Positions 31,065 through 48,222 of a DNA stretch of 64,000 nt are shown here, piece after piece (within the stretch, counting starts at the first letter, position 1; each line of letters begins with the position of its first letter). The position numbers and the translations under genes were made by a program. Source of the DNA: an uncultured archaeon (GTDB lineage Archaea > Aenigmatarchaeota > Aenigmatarchaeia > PWEA01 > JAGHBM01); assembly GCA_964640225.1 (NCBI GenBank), contig CAZXFI010000001.1:51507-115506 (forward strand), written 5' to 3'. The notes below the pieces were generated by a model that saw nothing but the letters and a program-made list of their open reading frames with translations, was not told the DNA's origin and ran no database searches.

Positions 31065-31121
31065 ATAAGATAGGAGGCCCTGAAAACATTTAAACCTTTA
31101 CTCCACAAAACTTATTTCATG

Positions 31122-31324
31122 GGCCCGTGGCGTAACCGGATAACGCGCTCGGCTTCGGACAAGCTTTTTAGAAAAAAGCTTGAGCAAAAACACGGAAACA
31201 GGGGAAACCGAGAGACTGGGGGTTCGAAAACAAAAACCTTTTGGAAAAAGGTTCTTGTATCTCCAAAACCTGGAAACGCAAAGCGTTTCCCAGTGGGGAA
31301 CGAAATTCCCTCCGGGCTCACCAA
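31122..31324 (+). tRNA. tRNA-Arg(TCG) with two introns (anticodon loop 31161-31208 and T-loop about 31230-31307); CCA encoded
   Basis: Hand-folded. Acceptor GGGCCCG/CGGGCTC, D-stem GCGT/ACGC, anticodon stem CTCGG/CCGAG with loop CTTCGGA, T-stem GGGGG/CCCTC with loop TTCGAA-T. Confidence 0.6.
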
Positions 31325-31485
31325 CAAATCCTTTTTTAGAAAAAGGCTTTGTAATTTGGAACAAGGTTCCAAGATTCCCAAAAACCTGGAAAAGCCCTGC
31401 TTTTCCCAAATAAAACGTTTAAAAGCATTTGAAAACACAAAATAAAGGTAAGTTGAAGCACATGAAATGTGCTTATTTTCAATTT

Positions 31486-31653
31486 GCTCCCATAGTCTAG
31501 TGGCCAAAACTCAAGGAGTTTTGTACTCCAGCAATAATGCTGAAGTGGCCAAGGATGCTGGCCTCTCGTAAGCTTTTTGGGAAAAAGCTTAAGCAAAAAC
31601 CAAAAGCTTTAAGAAAGCCAGAGACCGGGGTTCAAATCCCCGTGGGAGCACCA
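31486..31653 (+). tRNA. tRNA-Glu(CTC) with two introns (D-loop about 31508-31552 flanked by duplicated AGTGGCCAA; anticodon loop 31570-31616); CCA encoded
   Basis: Hand-folded. Acceptor GCTCCCA/TGGGAGC, anticodon stem CTGGC/GCCAG with loop CTCTCGT, T-arm CGGGG-TTCAAAT-CCCCG. Confidence 0.65.
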
Positions 31654-37577: not shown

Positions 37578-38659
37578 TAATTTCCTGTTCTCTGAAAATC
37601 AGTCCATAAATTCCTTGCCCAGTATGTTTTCCCTGTAATCCCTGATTGCAAAGGGTTCCACTGAAATGCTTTCCTGCATGTAGTATATGTTCACCAGGGC
37701 ATTGCTTTTTAATTTCTTTTCTTCGGGCGGTATGCTCATGGACCGGATTTTTTCCAAATCTCTGTTGAGTATCTCTTCCGGATATAATTCCATTGTATTC
37801 CCTTTAGTAGTTGGGAAGAAAAAGATTTAAACCCGTTCTGTATCAAAAGGGGTTATTTCTGGCTCCGTTAAAACTCGCTCCCGGAGCCTTATGGAGCCAC
37901 TTGAATCCAGTCTGTCTGAAATATATCTTGCCGGAGAGATATCTTTATATCCCGAATTCTGCGATAGAGAATCGTCAAACTGGAACGGAGGTGGGGTGGG
38001 ATGGCAATCAAGAAAAAGAAGAAGGTAAACAAAGAGATGGAAGAATAGACGGCAGATACTTTAGGCTTATTTTTTTCTTTTTTTTTATTTTAACATTTCA
38101 TTTCCTTTACACGGCTTCTGATCCTGTCCATTCCAACGTAAACCCTGTCGGGAGCGTCGCAAAGCACCGGCTCTTCTCCGGACTCCCCGCCGTAATGGCA
38201 AGGCGCGTACCTGTTTATCTCCCTTAAAAGTCCCTTCATCTCCGGATTCATTTCCCCGAACAAAGTGAGCGCAGGGCCGGTTTTCCTGCCCATGAAAAAT
38301 ATTGGGTGAGGGAAAATTTAAATTTTTGGATTTAGCCGATGTAGCTGACGTCCCTGCGGGGAACCTTTTTCTTCTGTTTCTCCACGGCTTTCTGGAGCTT
38401 TTCTATGAGGGATTCCACCTGGGGCAGCCGCATGTGTATCTTGGTGAGCTTCTCCTTTCCCTTAGGGGTGGAGCCCAGAAGCTCTATGTAGAACATGTCC
38501 CTTTTCCATTTTATTGAAAATCCCTTTACAAGAACCATGGGTTATTATTCGGGGAAGAATTATTTAAATGCCTCCCGCAAAACCTGTTCGGGAAAGAAAG
38601 TTAGGGAAAAACCGAACAAAATAAGCAGTTTTTTATTTGTCCCTGTCCTAAAAATTAGC

Positions 38660-42579: not shown

Positions 42580-42981
42580 TTAGATTCTGTCAGCGAATAT
42601 GTATTTTTTCTTTACCACAAAGGCCGCGAGCAGGCACAGAATAAACTGGGCCACGTAAAGCATAAAATTCTGCAGGTTGAATATCTGGGACTCCAAAAAA
42701 ATGAAAAGCACGCCGTAATCCATGAGGATATGTATTATTATGAATACTATGCCGAAGGCCGGGCCCTCAAGCCACTCAAACCTCTTTATCTTTCTCATGT
42801 ATACGAAGGCGGCCGCGAAAGTCCCTGCCGCCGCGAAAACCATGTAGTTGTGCATCCACAGCTCGGTGCTTCCCATCAGGGACAGGGTGAGAACCGCCTC
42901 CAGAAATATGAAGAGCCATACCAAAACCGCCAGAAGTATGGCAAGGCCCCAGTTGCTGAGGAATTTCCTCTCTTCTATCAT
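42580..42981 (-). CDS. Small polytopic membrane protein
   Basis: 133 aa with four hydrophobic segments. ORF track. Confidence 0.4.
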   Translation of the reverse strand: MIEERKFLSNWGLAILLAVLVWLFIFLEAVLTLSLMGSTELWMHNYMVFAAAGTFAAAFVYMRKIKRFEWLEGPAFGIVFIIIHILMDYGVLFIFLESQIFNLQNFMLYVAQFILCLLAAFVVKKKYIFADRI

Positions 42982-43045
42982 ATTGATATTATAGGGAGAT
43001 AGACTTAAAAAGTTTTTAAATGTATTGTGCCATAACTATAGTTAT

Positions 43046-43285
43046 GCGGGGGTGTCCGAGTAAGTTTTTAGAAAAAGCTTAAGCAAAAACTAAAAGCTTC
43101 GGGAATGGCCAAAACTGAAGTTTTGAACCCCGCCGGCAGACCGGCAAGGTGGCCAGAGGAGCAAGGTTGAGGGCCTTGTGGCTTAGTGCCTTCGCGAGTT
43201 CAAATCGGTCGACATGCACGAAGTGTATGTCCGTGCGTAGCACGTAAGGCGGAAGCCTACCGTGGAGTTCTCGTCCCCCGCACCA
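43046..43285 (+). tRNA. tRNA-Leu(GAG), type II, with two introns (D-loop 43061-43149; T-loop 43206-43269); CCA encoded
   Basis: Hand-folded. Acceptor GCGGGGG/CCCCCGC. D-arm TCC-GAG[intron]TGGCCAGA-GGA. Anticodon stem CAAGG/CCTTG with loop TTGAGGG. Variable arm GGC-TTAGT-GCC. T-stem GCGAG/CTCGT with loop TTCAAAT. Confidence 0.55.
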
Positions 43286-43439
43286 CACTTTGAAATGACC
43301 CCTCTCTTTTCAGGTTTCCGCATTTTTCAAAGCATAAATGTTTGCGCGTAATTGACTTCCGTTGAAGGTATTATATGTTCTCTCCCCGGACTGTCCAGCA
43401 ACCGGCCGCTGATTATCCCGATTTTACCATGTCCCCGCA

Positions 43440-44960
43440 TCACGGATTGAGCTCCTCAAGCAGGCCCTCTATCTCTTCCAGCTTCCTCTCTATCTCCACT
43501 ATGGTTTCTGTTGTATTCCGGGTTTCCTGTTCCTCCGCCTCTGTTTCGTTAACGGAGCCGATCTTTATGAAATCCTGGATTTCCCTGTCGGTCTTGAACT
43601 CCATAACCTCGTTTGTCCTGCTATTGACGAATGCCTGGTAGGCTATACCGGCCGCGTCGTTCGGCACCACCGCAACCTTCCAGTAAAGCGTGTCGTCGGT
43701 CACGAAGGGCAGGGACTCCACCATCCTGAACTTGCTCCAGTCAACCACCGGGTTCTCCCTCCTCACGAAATCCGTGGACTTCACCGGACCGGTGAGAGTC
43801 TCCTTCAGGGGAAGCTCGTACCTCTCTATGGAGCCGTCCGCGGCGTCAATAAGGAAAATCTTGAAAATCCCATGGCTTTCTCCGTAGGGCTCCGTGCTTA
43901 TGAACCACTTAAGCCCTTCAGACGTGTTCATGAGGAAAGGCTGCCTGTTGCTTGAGTCTATGTCCTGTATGTCTATCTGGTCATCGTGTATGAACCACTT
44001 GTTTATCAGGCCCTTGTGGTACTCGTAGGCCCCTATGTAGTAGCGGGCAAGGTTCTCGGGGAATATCCTGTTGTTCTCCAGGACCGGGTTTTCCTGCGCC
44101 TCGTCCGGCTCAAGGAACTGCGTGTTTCCGGAGGAGTCTATTAGAAGAATGCCCTCAAACCTGGGCACTGTGTAAACCAGCCCGAACCAGTGGTGGAAAG
44201 AATAGGATATGGTTGGCACCACAGTGTAAAGCTCGCCGTCCTTCTCCAGGTAATACGGGTCGTCCAGGTCCACCCAGTACTTTTCCTTGTAGATGTTCCA
44301 CTGCAAGTTGTCAAACACCTGCATGCTTTCCCCGACCGCCATGTCCTTCCACACTATGTTGGTGTTTTTTCTCTGCATGGTGGCGTCCACGAAAATCACT
44401 CCCTTGTTCTTTAGCATGAACTCCAGTATGAACCCGTCAGGCACCAGCGGGAACATCCATGTCAGGTTGCCGTTGACGTTGGCTATGTTTTCCGTTCCCA
44501 GCCTGTACTGGCTCAGCTGCAGCGAGTCCTTGCTGTACCTGTAGGCCACTTCAAAGGGCATGAGCCTTATGTTTTCCCTTGTTTCCGGCAGGCTGTCTAT
44601 CGGCCTGTATTCAAGTTCTTCCACCAGGTGCAGTTGCGGGAGCAGGGACGAGAAAACCGGTGAAACCGCGAAAAGTACTATGAGAAGCGGCAGCAGTGAA
44701 AAGGCAAGATTGAACTCCCTGGAAGAGAATTTTCCGTTCTCAAATTTCTGCAGCCTGATTCTTTTCTTGAACACGAATTTAACCAGGACCAGGAGTACAA
44801 CAAGAATCTCTATTATTATAGGAGACCTGTAAAAGAACATGAAAAATCCGTGGAACCAGGGCCTGAAGTACCACACGAAAACAAGTATTACGAGGGCTGG
44901 AATAATTTTCTTGAGAAGATTGCGGGAAATTTTCAGCTTTTTTTTCTTTGCCTGGGCCAT
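43440..44960 (-). CDS. Hypothetical membrane-anchored protein
   Basis: 506 aa. Basic N-terminus, 4-5 TM helices, a large soluble domain and an acidic coiled C-terminus. Confidence 0.45.
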   Translation of the reverse strand: MAQAKKKKLKISRNLLKKIIPALVILVFVWYFRPWFHGFFMFFYRSPIIIEILVVLLVLVKFVFKKRIRLQKFENGKFSSREFNLAFSLLPLLIVLFAVSPVFSSLLPQLHLVEELEYRPIDSLPETRENIRLMPFEVAYRYSKDSLQLSQYRLGTENIANVNGNLTWMFPLVPDGFILEFMLKNKGVIFVDATMQRKNTNIVWKDMAVGESMQVFDNLQWNIYKEKYWVDLDDPYYLEKDGELYTVVPTISYSFHHWFGLVYTVPRFEGILLIDSSGNTQFLEPDEAQENPVLENNRIFPENLARYYIGAYEYHKGLINKWFIHDDQIDIQDIDSSNRQPFLMNTSEGLKWFISTEPYGESHGIFKIFLIDAADGSIERYELPLKETLTGPVKSTDFVRRENPVVDWSKFRMVESLPFVTDDTLYWKVAVVPNDAAGIAYQAFVNSRTNEVMEFKTDREIQDFIKIGSVNETEAEEQETRNTTETIVEIERKLEEIEGLLEELNP

Positions 44961-47168: not shown

Positions 47169-47579
47169 TTACCCTCCTTTATCGGGATTTTCAAAATCTT
47201 CCAGCGTGCGCTCCCCGAAGAACTTCCTCTTGGCCGCCTTCATGGTGCCGCTCACCCCGAGCGTGTAGGGTATAACCCTGGTGTCGCCTATCCTTTCTAT
47301 AAGCGCAAGCGCGGCTCTCACGTACTCCACGTAGTTGTTGTCGCACCTTATGAGCCCTCTCTGGTTGGCCTCATCCCAGCTGTCGCTTACAAACCATATG
47401 TTGGCCTCCGAGGCCCCCAGCTCCCCGACCAAATTGAGCAGGGAATGCCAGAAGGCGTTTAGAATGTCGCCGAAATTGATTTTTTCCTGGCTTATTATCT
47501 CAAAGGCCAGGTACCTCTTCTTTTCCCTGAGAGTCGGGGGAAGGATTTTGGTCCGGTCAGCCACCCGCACCACCTGCAA
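47169..47579 (-). CDS. rnp2: RNase P protein subunit Pop5 (Rnp2)
   Basis: LREKKRYLAFEIIS is the Pop5 signature N-terminus. About 130 aa. Adjacent to the Rpp30 gene. Confidence 0.7.
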   Translation of the reverse strand: MQVVRVADRTKILPPTLREKKRYLAFEIISQEKINFGDILNAFWHSLLNLVGELGASEANIWFVSDSWDEANQRGLIRCDNNYVEYVRAALALIERIGDTRVIPYTLGVSGTMKAAKRKFFGERTLEDFENPDKGG

Positions 47580-48222
47580 TCATTTTAGGCACGTCGGACA
47601 CGGATTTCATTGACTCCTCAAGCCCCATGCCAAGCACCTGCCCCAAGGCCGCGAGCTCCCTCGGGTCCCTCATGTCCCATTTGCTTCTTGAAGCCGAGGT
47701 TATGACCACGGGAGCCCTGTATTTCCTGGCAAGCTCTATGTTGAGCCTCATGTGGCTCAGAACGAAGGACCTTACCTTTTTGAAAGTCTCAAGAACCTCG
47801 TGGAAGTTTATTTCTATCGCCACGTTGTTTTCCATGCAGAACCTTGCTATCACGTGGTCAACGCCCGAATCAGACCTCCTGTACTCCGGGTGCGAGAGAA
47901 GCGAAACGCGGGAATCCTCCGAGGCGGCACGGTTTATCTTGTATTCCCCGCCCGAAACTATTATAAATTTTGAATGCTTCCCGGCCTTGGTCAAGGACCT
48001 CTTCATCTCCTTGACCCCGTCGGCCTCAACCTCTATTCCCGGCACTATCTTCAGGTTCTTCACGGAACGGGCCATTTCGCTTATTTTCCTGAACCTGTCC
48101 AGGTTTGCGTATTTCTCTACAAGGCCTATTCCGGAATATCCGAGCCTCTTGGCGGTTTCCACTACCTCGTCAAACTCTTCCAGGTTGTCTAGATGTATGT
48201 TTAAATCGTAAAAGTCCATCAA
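47557..48222 (-). CDS. rnp3: RNase P protein subunit Rpp30 (Rnp3), TIM/PHP-like barrel
   Basis: MMDFYDLNIHL start and about 220 aa, typical of archaeal Rpp30. Overlaps the Pop5 start by 23 nt. Confidence 0.7.
   Translation of the reverse strand: MMDFYDLNIHLDNLEEFDEVVETAKRLGYSGIGLVEKYANLDRFRKISEMARSVKNLKIVPGIEVEADGVKEMKRSLTKAGKHSKFIIVSGGEYKINRAASEDSRVSLLSHPEYRRSDSGVDHVIARFCMENNVAIEINFHEVLETFKKVRSFVLSHMRLNIELARKYRAPVVITSASRSKWDMRDPRELAALGQVLGMGLEESMKSVSDVPKMIAGGAGG

What the first reader, a model, noticed from the sequence alone, without database searches (positions are those of the whole stretch)
43046..43285. tRNA-Leu(GAG) with a roughly 89-nt D-loop intron and a roughly 64-nt T-loop intron
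A type II tRNA with a long variable arm is reconstructed only if GAG[89 nt]TGGCCAGA forms the D-loop and TTCAAAT[64 nt] the T-loop. Acceptor and T-stems are then perfectly or near-perfectly paired (GCGGGGG/CCCCCGC; GCGAG/CTCGT). The D-loop insert contains the same hairpin motif as the anticodon-loop introns of the other two tRNAs.
Basis: seen in the sequence. Interest (0 to 1): 0.55.

Follow-up and report, generated by a model that had tools for sequence, protein, structure and literature searches.

The report
Three-intron tRNA-Leu gene in a DPANN archaeon
This is a real leucine tRNA gene from a tiny uncultured archaeon (Aenigmatarchaeota), interrupted by three short protein-spliced introns rather than the two first proposed; the type is known, but here the introns clearly hop between tRNAs and positions.

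Summary
Window 43046-43285 (+) encodes tRNA-Leu(GAG) with an encoded CCA. Standard finders miss it, and it reappears when the inserts are removed.

The interpretation needs one correction. The 89-nt "D-loop intron" is two bulge-helix-bulge (BHB) introns separated by a 7-nt micro-exon:
- Intron 1: 43061-43105, position 15/16.
- Micro-exon TGGCCAA: 43106-43112.
- Intron 2: 43113-43156, about position 21/22.
- Intron 3, in the T-loop: 43205-43268, position 59/60. It is a textbook hBHBh' motif.

As a single 89-nt unit the insert has no BHB motif. It would also put G where every orthologue has A21.

Six orthologous loci in related Aenigmatarchaeota contigs carry 0, 1, 2 or 3 introns. Each of the window's three sites is occupied in some orthologues and empty in others. 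The spliced exons keep the cloverleaf, with compensatory changes.

The 15/16 intron belongs to a cassette family. That family also sits at 37/38 in tRNA-Glu and tRNA-Arg, and at 59/60 in another lineage's tRNA-Leu.

This resembles the multi-intron tRNAs and intron transposition known from Thermoproteales, seen here in a DPANN lineage. I rate it a new member of a known kind, of moderate interest. Splicing itself is inferred; no RNA data were available.

The parts
43013..43021 (+). TATA-box-like element TTTTTAAAT, ending 24 nt upstream of the mature 5' end. It is the inferred archaeal promoter.
   Evidence: Read from the sequence. L003, L008, L010 and L012 have TTTTATAAR at the same distance. 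L011 has only a TATTTTAAG-like box about 10 nt further upstream. Promoter function is inferred.
43046..43060 (+). Exon 1: GCGGGGG-TG-TCCG-AG, tRNA positions 1-15 (acceptor 5' strand, U8, G9, D-stem 5' strand, A14, G15).
   Evidence: It is conserved in all orthologues.
43061..43105 (+). Intron 1 (45 nt, position 15/16), a member of cassette family A. The central helix is TCCG (exon) with CGGG (intron). The bulges are AG|T and AA|T. The inner helix is 10 bp by the consecutive-pair count, with core AAGTTTTT/AAAAGCTT.
   Evidence: BHB scan. None of 20000 shuffled introns did as well. Forcing the motif costs +1.1 kcal/mol over the MFE. The same site is occupied in L003 and L012 and empty in L008, L010 and L011. 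It is 91% identical over 43 nt to the tRNA-Glu 37/38 intron of L073.
43106..43112 (+). Micro-exon TGGCCAA (U16, G18, G19, C20, C20a, A20b, A21). It consists of the last bulge nt of intron 1, the 4-nt central-helix strand of intron 2 and the first two bulge nt of intron 2.
   Evidence: It is contiguous with exon 1 in L008, L010 and L011, and contiguous with the next exon in L003 and L011.
43113..43156 (+). Intron 2 (44 nt, about position 21/22). The central helix is GGCC/GGCC. The bulges are AA|A and AG|A. The inner helix is 3 bp. The D-stem can act as the outer helix once intron 1 is gone.
   Evidence: Shuffle fraction 0.00085. Forcing the motif costs +2.9 kcal/mol. After in-silico removal of intron 1 the MFE forms the D-stem plus GGCC/GGCC. 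The same site is occupied in L008 and L010. It is related to the D-loop intron of the window's tRNA-Glu (5 of 2000 shuffles).
43157..43204 (+). Exon 3: A22 through A59. It holds the D-stem 3' strand, the anticodon arm with anticodon GAG at 43169-43171, a 15-nt variable arm, the T-stem 5' strand and TTCAAA.
43205..43268 (+). Intron 3 (64 nt, position 59/60), a strict hBHBh' motif. The outer helix is the 5-bp T-stem. The central helix is TTCA/TGGA. The bulges are AA|T and GT|T. The inner helix is CGGT/ACCG.
   Evidence: Shuffle fraction 0.0004. Forcing the motif costs +1.3 kcal/mol. The site is occupied by unrelated introns in L008, L010 and L012 and is empty in L003 and L011.
43269..43285 (+). 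Exon 4: T60, T-stem 3' strand CTCGT, acceptor 3' strand CCCCCGC, discriminator A73 and the encoded CCA.
   Evidence: The last 43 nt (43243-43285) are identical in an independent Logan assembly contig (L001).
43303..43311 (+). T-rich tract TCTCTTTTC downstream of CCA, the inferred transcription stop.
   Evidence: Read from the sequence. L008 and L010 have a similar tract. Function is inferred.

Best explanation
Window 43046-43285 (+) is a functional tRNA-Leu(GAG) gene of an uncultured Aenigmatarchaeota (DPANN) archaeon. Three protein-spliced BHB introns interrupt it, at positions 15/16 (45 nt), about 21/22 (44 nt) and 59/60 (64 nt).

**Proposed mechanism**
1. The gene is transcribed from a TATA-type promoter.
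2. The archaeal splicing endonuclease (EndA) cuts after the second nucleotide of each 3-nt bulge flanking a 4-bp helix.
3. The RtcB-type ligase joins the four exons (15 + 7 + 48 + 17 nt) into an 87-nt class II tRNA. CCA is already encoded.

**Likely order of splicing.** The 7-nt micro-exon is held only by the GGCC/GGCC helix of intron 2. The central helix of intron 1 uses the D-stem 5' strand. Splicing is therefore probably ordered, with intron 1 removed first; the D-stem can then form and complete the motif of intron 2.

**Origin of the introns.** They are portable cassettes: a conserved hairpin core plus a 4-nt stretch complementary to the exon just upstream of the 5' splice site. In this lineage they have been copied between tRNAs and between positions.

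**Shown:** exon and intron anatomy, BHB motifs, presence/absence among orthologues, exon covariation, intron families.
**Inferred:** transcription, cleavage, ligation, splicing order and the mechanism of intron spread.
For: **The spliced product is a tRNA**
- The BHB-consistent combination that best matches the intronless orthologue is exactly the three introns above. ARAGORN calls its 87-nt product tRNA-Leu(gag).

**BHB motifs**
- Each motif beats shuffled introns. The fractions doing as well are 0, 0.00085 and 0.0004 of 20000.
- Forcing all three motifs costs only 5.2 kcal/mol against an MFE of -97.
- The same cutting rule reproduces the canonical 37/38 site in the window's tRNA-Arg, which serves as an internal control.

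**Orthologues.** They were found through a conserved divergent 133-aa neighbouring gene.
- L011 is intronless (ARAGORN; Rfam tRNA 48.1 bits).
- L003 has only the 15/16 intron.
- L008 and L010 have introns at 21/22 and 59/60.
- L012 has introns at 15/16, 53/54 and 59/60.
- All these junctions show 3 or 4 of 4 central-helix pairs.

**Covariation**
- On the spliced alignment the cloverleaf is 100% paired. Five pairs change on both sides, including D-stem and T-stem pairs that span the introns. None of 500 shuffles reached the observed covariation score, and slid controls give 38-68% pairing.

**Intron families**
- The window's Leu 15/16 intron resembles the window's Glu and Arg 37/38 introns, the L012 Leu 59/60 intron and the L073 Glu 37/38 intron.

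**Context**
- The other two tRNAs in the window also carry two BHB introns each, so the organism must splice such genes.
- The best named ProRS hits are Aenigmarchaeota/Aenigmatarchaeota at 71% and 63% identity, and the record title of L008 names the same group.
- Kaneta et al. 2018 (PMC5829648) link increased tRNA gene disruption in DPANN lineages to EndA enzymes that carry an extra loop.
Against: - There is no RNA evidence of any kind. No transcript, junction or circular intron was seen.
- The splicing endonuclease and ligase genes were not found among the roughly 30 window ORFs scanned. The rest of the genome could not be examined.
- Introns 1 and 2 lack the outer exon-exon helix, so their motifs are relaxed HBh'-type.
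- In the unconstrained MFE the 5' bulge of intron 2 is absorbed into an AAAAC/GUUUU hairpin.
- Several orthologue junctions have only 3 of 4 central-helix pairs, and the window's tRNA-Glu 37/38 intron has only 2 of 4.
- Whether another, intact tRNA-Leu(GAG) copy exists elsewhere in the genome is unknown.
- The cleavage rule (cut after bulge nt 2) comes from established knowledge of archaeal EndA. It was not tested here.
Confidence: 0.85

Rival explanations
1. One reading: two introns only, a single 89-nt D-loop intron (43061-43149) and a 64-nt T-loop intron. The second TGGCCA copy would be the exon.
For: Removing these two inserts also gives a sequence that ARAGORN accepts as tRNA-Leu(gag). 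The product differs from the three-intron product at one base only, G instead of A at position 21.
Against: Only 1 of 4 central-helix pairs forms at 43060/43149, with no flanking helices. Orthologues carry the 15/16 and 21/22 introns separately, and the sequence TGGCCAA is exonic in both cases. All orthologues, including the intronless one, have A at position 21. From established tRNA knowledge, A21 is a near-universal residue.
Confidence: 0.07
2. A dead tRNA gene: a pseudogene broken by insertions of short repeated elements and never repaired at the RNA level.
For: Standard tRNA finders do not see it. The inserts belong to repeat families. A family-B-like copy also lies outside any tRNA, in the Arg-Glu spacer.
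Against: Every insert sits in a BHB-type motif at the exact junction. The exons are intact, with compensatory changes across lineages. A promoter-like box and CCA are kept. All three tRNA genes in the window are interrupted in the same way, and so are their orthologues in an 833-kb contig (CP070662.1, L072) and in a 60-kb contig of another assembly (L073). These cannot all be dead.
Confidence: 0.04
3. A remnant of integration by a mobile element or virus into the tRNA gene, with duplicated att-like tRNA segments (the repeated TGGCCA), or an assembly artefact.
For: TGGCCA occurs twice, at 43106-43111 and 43150-43155. The tRNA-Glu D-loop insert is flanked by the 9-nt repeat AGTGGCCAA. An independent Logan contig ends inside intron 3.
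Against: The repeat follows from the palindromic central helix GGCC/GGCC and does not need a target-site duplication. The inserts are 44-64 nt, not element-sized. The same architecture recurs in independent assemblies from NCBI, ENA-derived, JGI and Logan sources. The Logan contig matches 43243-43285 at 100%. A viral-contig scan with the cassette core returned only unrelated coding-sequence matches.
Confidence: 0.02

Closest known systems
Multiple-intron tRNA genes of Thermoproteales (Crenarchaeota), found with SPLITS by Sugahara et al. 2006-2009; reviewed in PMC4033280 and PMC4090602
   Same: BHB or relaxed-BHB introns lie at non-canonical positions, including 59/60 and 53/54, together with canonical 37/38 introns. 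There are up to three introns per tRNA, which PMC4033280 states as the known maximum. Standard finders miss these genes.
   Different: The host is a DPANN archaeon (Aenigmatarchaeota), not a crenarchaeon. Two introns share the D-loop and are separated by a 7-nt micro-exon, the smallest spacing that tandem BHB motifs allow. L012 has a 6-nt micro-exon in the T-loop. I could not find a described precedent for this spacing in the held literature. That is absence of evidence only.
[quoted passage not shown] 2010, as summarised in PMC4033280 and PMC4090602)
   Same: Near-identical intron sequences occur in different tRNA species and at different positions. The BHB requirement fixes only the junction-proximal bases.
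   Different: Here the same cassette is shared across lineages whose neighbouring proteins are only about 60-70% identical. The window's Leu 15/16 intron matches the L012 Leu 59/60 intron at 100% over 25 nt. It matches the L073 Glu 37/38 intron at 91% over 43 nt. Two contigs 89% identical overall carry unrelated introns at the same 59/60 site.
Disrupted tRNA genes of other DPANN archaea (Nanoarchaeum split tRNAs; ARMAN-2 and Mancarchaeum with epsilon2 EndA; L3-loop alpha4 EndA lineages; PMC3239211, PMC5829648)
   Same: It is a DPANN host with many non-canonical tRNA introns. Kaneta et al. explicitly expected unidentified disrupted tRNA genes in new DPANN genomes.
   Different: Aenigmatarchaeota tRNA sets were not among those analysed in that paper. 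No split or permuted gene is seen here, only cis-introns. The EndA type of this lineage was not determined.
Ectopic and multiple tRNA introns in Cyanidioschyzon merolae and in nucleomorphs (PMC3728597, PMC4090602)
   Same: These genes have introns in the D and T arms, up to three per gene, and splice-site choice depends on BHB motifs.
   Different: They are eukaryotic nuclear or nucleomorph genes, unrelated by descent, and the nucleomorph introns are much shorter.

Membership tests
tRNA-Leu (class II tRNA) | The spliced sequence folds into a cloverleaf with a 7-bp acceptor stem, a long variable arm, a Leu anticodon, G18/G19, a T54-T55-C56 T-loop and discriminator A73. | tested here: met
   ARAGORN calls the 87-nt product tRNA-Leu(gag). 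The intronless orthologue scores 48.1 bits against Rfam tRNA, above the gathering score of 29. Covariation supports all stems. The residues were read from the sequence.
Archaeal BHB (protein-spliced) tRNA intron | A 4-bp central helix is flanked by two 3-nt bulges that carry the splice sites (strict hBHBh'), or a relaxed HBh', hBH or BHL form. | tested here: met
   Intron 3 is strict, with central, outer and inner helices of 4, 5 and 4 bp. Introns 1 and 2 are HBh'-type, with 4, 0, 10 bp and 4, 1, 3 bp. Shuffle controls are and energy costs.
Archaeal BHB (protein-spliced) tRNA intron | The intron is excised in vivo by EndA and the exons are joined by RtcB. | not testable with these tools
   No transcript data were available. 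This needs tRNA-seq, circRNA-seq or an in-vitro cleavage assay.
Archaeal BHB (protein-spliced) tRNA intron | The genome encodes an EndA with broad substrate specificity, as needed for relaxed or non-canonical sites. | not tested
   No tRNA_int_endo domain was found among about 30 window ORFs scanned.
Transposed or mobile tRNA intron family (sensu Fujishima 2010) | Significantly similar intron sequences occur in different tRNA species and/or positions, while the host tRNA bodies are unrelated. | tested here: met
   (0 of 100 shuffles). (E-values 1e-7 to 4e-4). (0 of 2000 shuffles for family A, family B and the L012 pair). (91% over 43 nt against the L073 Glu 37/38 intron).
   Only 1 of 4 central-helix pairs forms, and both flanking helices are 0 bp.
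Split or permuted tRNA gene | The tRNA halves are encoded at separate loci or in permuted order. | tested here: not met
   All four exons are colinear within 240 nt on one strand.

The most novel reading that the evidence does not exclude
The introns could be an actively spreading, possibly horizontally exchanged, family of portable cassettes. Each would have a conserved hairpin core, |T-AAGCTTTTT-NNN-AAAAAGCTT-AAGCAAAAA, plus a 4-nt exon-complementary 'address' and a terminal AA. Such cassettes could colonise any tRNA site that offers four pairable bases. The core is as conserved across Aenigmatarchaeota lineages as the tRNA exons themselves. That would imply either selection on the core (a function of the excised, probably circular, RNA or a protein-binding site) or very recent transfer. 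Related contigs with different introns at one site (L008 versus L010), and tandem introns at the minimal 6-7-nt spacing, would make this lineage a natural system for working out how archaeal tRNA introns are gained.
Probability: 0.3. Interest if true: 0.7.

Novelty: new member of a known kind. Interest (0 to 1): 0.5.

Why it matters
- **Annotation.** All three tRNA genes in this 64-kb window are invisible to ARAGORN in default mode and to Rfam. Aenigmatarchaeota genomes annotated that way will appear to lack tRNAs they actually have.
- **Evolution.** Intron proliferation and intron copying between tRNA positions were described for Thermoproteales. Here they also operate in a DPANN lineage. Presence/absence and replacement differences among relatives could be used to time and dissect intron gain, whose mechanism is still unknown (PMC4090602).
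- **Mechanism.** Two BHB introns separated by the minimal 7-nt micro-exon pose a concrete question about the order of cleavage and ligation. It can be answered with a single in-vitro substrate.

Tried and rejected
- **ARAGORN with anticodon-loop introns allowed.** It found only a mis-modelled "tRNA-Leu(caa)" at 31486-31653, which is really tRNA-Glu(CTC) with two introns.
- **Rfam.** The gathering and relaxed searches gave no tRNA match in the window. The gathering run also missed the intronless L011 tRNA, which a short-range relaxed run scored at 48 bits. Gathering-mode negatives are therefore weak evidence.
- **Weak Rfam RNase_P hit at 37994-38132.** It matches both strands of a low-complexity tract and lies far below the gathering score, so I rejected it.
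- **Synteny through the 506-aa neighbour.** L005, L006 and L007 have no tRNA-Leu nearby. The 133-aa divergent neighbour worked instead.
- **Viral-contig scan with the cassette core.** It gave 58 hits. All were coding-sequence or unrelated low-GC contexts with no tRNA exons.
- **Acceptor-stem + NCCA scan for further hidden tRNAs.** Only the three known genes lie outside long ORFs.
- **C/D-box sRNA inside the introns.** No RUGAUGA box is present (read from the sequence), so I dropped the idea.
- **Automatic BHB + ARAGORN combinatorics.** This is too permissive on its own, because ARAGORN accepted many odd products. Ranking against the intronless orthologue was needed.
- **Protein cluster look-up for organism names.** It returned no names.

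Full report
**1. Observation**

GCGGGGG-TG-TCCG-AG is followed by 89 nt, then TGGCCAGAGGA and a GAG anticodon arm. A 15-nt variable arm follows, then GCGAG-TTCAAAT, 64 nt, and CTCGT-CCCCCGC-A-CCA ending at 43285. Deleting the two inserts gives an 87-nt sequence that ARAGORN calls tRNA-Leu(gag).

Nothing is detected on the unedited DNA:
- ARAGORN in default mode finds nothing.
- Rfam at gathering score finds nothing.
- Rfam in relaxed mode on 42950-43400 finds no tRNA.

The shared motif is real and non-random.

**2. Organism**

The window is archaeal. It encodes RNase P proteins Rpp30 and Pop5, proteasome alpha, SBDS, L15e, ABCE1, Nre, Trm1 and ProRS. The best named ProRS relatives are Candidatus Aenigmarchaeota/Aenigmatarchaeota MAGs at 71% and 63% identity. 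A syntenic contig is titled Candidatus Aenigmatarchaeota archaeon RS_12_33. The host is therefore a DPANN archaeon, most likely Aenigmatarchaeota. The source genome itself is not among the species representatives searched.

**3. Anatomy: three introns, not two**

I scanned the locus with the archaeal BHB geometry: a 4-bp central helix H, a 3-nt bulge on each strand, and a cut after the second bulge nucleotide. This rule comes from established knowledge of EndA. It reproduces the canonical 37/38 site in the window's tRNA-Arg, which serves as an internal control.

Among all BHB-consistent combinations, the one whose product best matches the intronless orthologue consists of three introns.

| Intron | Coordinates | Position | Central helix H | Bulges | Inner helix h' | Outer helix h |
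|---|---|---|---|---|---|---|
| 1 | 43061-43105 | 15/16 | TCCG/CGGG | AG\|T, AA\|T | 10 bp (consecutive-pair count; core AAGTTTTT/AAAAGCTT) | none |
| 2 | 43113-43156 | about 21/22 | GGCC/GGCC | AA\|A, AG\|A | 3 bp | 1 bp |
| 3 | 43205-43268 | 59/60 | TTCA/TGGA | AA\|T, GT\|T | CGGT/ACCG (4 bp) | T-stem (5 bp) |

- Shuffling each intron while keeping the exons gives motifs this good in 0, 0.00085 and 0.0004 of 20000 trials.
- Forcing all three motifs costs 5.2 kcal/mol against an MFE of -97 kcal/mol. The MFE itself has a z-score of -3.96.
- The exons are 43046-43060, 43106-43112 (TGGCCAA), 43157-43204 and 43269-43285.
- The product is GCGGGGGTGTCCGAGTGGCCAAAGGAGCAAGGTTGAGGGCCTTGTGGCTTAGTGCCTTCGCGAGTTCAAATCTCGTCCCCCGCACCA.

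**4. Comparative evidence**

The tRNA lies 64 nt upstream of a divergently transcribed 133-aa membrane-protein gene. The pair is conserved, so homologues of that protein lead to orthologous tRNA loci.

| Locus | Source | Introns in tRNA-Leu(GAG) |
|---|---|---|
| L011 | metagenome contig | none (ARAGORN; Rfam tRNA 48.1 bits) |
| L003/L009 | GCA_964584335.1 | 15/16 only, 49 nt |
| L008 | JAGLWW010000086.1 | 21/22 (54 nt) and 59/60 (80 nt); CCGAGTGGCCAA contiguous |
| L010 | metagenome contig | the same 21/22 intron as L008, but an unrelated 45-nt intron at 59/60 |
| L012/L013 | metagenome contigs | 15/16 (80 nt), 53/54 (62 nt), 59/60 (38 nt) |

- L008 and L010 are 89% identical overall.
- Each of the window's three sites is thus occupied in some relatives and empty in others.
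- TGGCCAA is exonic in every case.
- All orthologue junctions have 3 or 4 of 4 H pairs with the same bulge layout.
- All spliced products are called tRNA-Leu(gag).
- On their alignment the cloverleaf is 100% paired. Five pairs change on both sides: D-stem 10:25 and 11:24, anticodon stem 29:41, one variable-arm pair, and T-stem 50:64.
- None of 500 shuffles reached the covariation score, and slid controls pair at only 38-68%.
- A TTTTATAAR-like box lies about 25-33 nt upstream of the mature 5' end in the window and in L003, L008, L010 and L012. L011 has only a similar box about 10 nt further upstream.

**5. The neighbouring tRNAs and the intron families**

The window's other two tRNA genes are also doubly interrupted.
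- tRNA-Arg(TCG), 31121-31323, has introns at 31159-31206 (37/38) and 31229-31306 (59/60).
- tRNA-Glu(CTC), 31486-31653, has introns at 31508-31552 (D-loop, H = GGCC/GGCC) and 31569-31615 (37/38).

Intron sequences fall into families that ignore tRNA identity and position.
- **Family A** (core TAAGCTTTTT-NNN-AAAAAGCTTAAGCAAAAA). Members are the window's Leu 15/16, Glu 37/38 and Arg 37/38 introns, the L012 Leu 59/60 intron (100% over 25 nt) and the L073 Glu 37/38 intron (91% over 43 nt).
- **Family B.** Members are the window's Arg 59/60 intron, the L008 Leu 59/60 intron, the L072 Glu 59/60 intron and a copy in the Arg-Glu spacer.
- **D-loop pair.** The window's Leu 21/22 intron resembles the window's Glu D-loop intron (5 of 2000 shuffles).
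- **Within L012.** The 15/16 and 53/54 introns are copies of each other.

Only the 4 nt that pair with the exon differ between family A copies: CGGG, TAAG, GGGG and CGAG. This fits a portable cassette plus a short "address".

Orthologous Arg and Glu genes in an 833-kb contig (CP070662.1, L072) and in the L073 contig carry two or three introns each.

**6. Mechanism**

What is shown is the anatomy. The rest is inferred from the established archaeal pathway, as follows:
1. The gene is transcribed.
2. EndA cleaves in the bulges.
3. RtcB ligates the exons.
4. The introns are probably released as circles.

A specific inference concerns the order of splicing.
- The H helix of intron 1 sequesters D-stem bases 10-13.
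- The micro-exon equals the last bulge nt of intron 1, plus the H strand of intron 2, plus two bulge nt of intron 2. This is the minimal possible spacing.
- If all four D-loop cuts happened before ligation, the 7-mer would be held by only 4 bp.
- After in-silico removal of intron 1, the MFE forms the D-stem stacked on GGCC/GGCC.
- I therefore predict the order intron 1, then intron 2.

**7. Comparison with known systems**

Multiple-intron tRNAs with relaxed BHB motifs, a maximum of three introns, and intron transposition are established for Thermoproteales (PMC4033280, PMC4090602). Positions 59/60 and 53/54 are listed there as known sites. Kaneta et al. 2018 (PMC5829648) report increased tRNA disruption in several DPANN lineages and anticipate undetected disrupted genes, but Aenigmatarchaeota were not analysed. 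The finding is therefore a new member of a known kind.

The less familiar aspects are:
- tandem introns at minimal spacing;
- conservation of a cassette across lineages;
- intron replacement at one site between related contigs.

**8. Limits**
- There are no RNA data.
- The EndA and RtcB genes of this genome were not seen.
- Introns 1 and 2 have relaxed motifs.
- The numbering of the D-loop positions is by convention.
- Whether the genome has another Leu(GAG) gene is unknown.

Noticed in passing
window 31121-31323 (+): tRNA-Arg(TCG) has two BHB introns: 31159-31206 (37/38, family A cassette; central, outer and inner helices 4, 5 and 0 bp) and 31229-31306 (59/60, family B; 4, 5 and 0 bp). The spliced 77-nt product is called tRNA-Arg(tcg) by ARAGORN. 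Default ARAGORN and Rfam miss it.
   Followed up: yes
window 31486-31653 (+): tRNA-Glu(CTC) has a 45-nt D-loop intron (31508-31552; GGCC/GGCC helix, flanked by the 9-nt repeat AGTGGCCAA) and a 47-nt 37/38 intron (31569-31615; only 2 of 4 central-helix pairs, but 8-bp inner and 5-bp outer helices). ARAGORN with introns allowed mis-calls the locus as tRNA-Leu(caa).
   Followed up: yes
window 31324-31485 (+), especially 31355-31408: The spacer between tRNA-Arg and tRNA-Glu starts directly after CCA with an intron-like element. It is related to the family B T-loop introns (76% over 54 nt). A similar element follows tRNA-Arg in L072 (8093-8170). So an intron-type cassette sits outside any tRNA body. 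It could be a processed trailer or spacer, or a relic. A further hairpin, GAAGCACATGAAATGTGCTT, lies just upstream of tRNA-Glu.
   Followed up: partly
L008 1163-1384 (-) versus L010 455-641 (-): These two contigs are 89% identical overall and share the same 21/22 intron in tRNA-Leu(GAG). They carry unrelated introns at 59/60, 80 nt (family B) versus 45 nt. This looks like an intron replacement at one site.
   Followed up: partly
L012 1149-1415 (-): This tRNA-Leu(GAG) has three introns at 15/16, 53/54 and 59/60. The first two are copies of each other (0 of 2000 shuffles). The last two are separated by a 6-nt micro-exon, TTCGAA, whose first base is also the third bulge base of the upstream intron.
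   Followed up: partly
L072 7960-8400 (+) (CP070662.1, 833-kb contig) and L073 7995-8497 (+): These are orthologous tRNA-Arg and tRNA-Glu genes downstream of ProRS in two other Aenigmatarchaeota assemblies. Arg has two introns in both. Glu has two introns in L072 and three in L073 (15/16, 37/38, 59/60). The intron set differs from the window's at every gene. The parsing was by eye only.
   Followed up: partly
window 42580-42981 (-): A 133-aa predicted membrane protein of unknown function is transcribed divergently from the tRNA-Leu. The pairing and the spacing of about 64 nt are conserved in every orthologous locus found. A second box, CTTTAAAAAG, about 50 nt upstream of the tRNA may be its promoter.
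   Followed up: partly
window 43440-44960 (-): A 506-aa protein with no Pfam domain has close homologues both in DPANN archaea (Woesearchaeota, Aenigmarchaeota) and in Bacillota/Limnochordia (46-50% identity). This suggests transfer between domains.
   Followed up: no
window 37994-38132: A weak Rfam match to the Plasmodium RNase_P model (36.8 bits against a gathering score of 100) appears on both strands of a low-complexity T/A-rich tract. I judged it an artefact. No archaeal RNase P RNA was detected in the window, although the Rpp30 and Pop5 genes are at 47169-48222.
   Followed up: yes
L011 182-269 (-): The Rfam gathering-mode run over five loci missed this plain, intronless tRNA. A short-range relaxed run scored it at 48.1 bits, above the gathering score of 29. 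Gathering-mode negatives from this tool should be treated with caution.
   Followed up: yes
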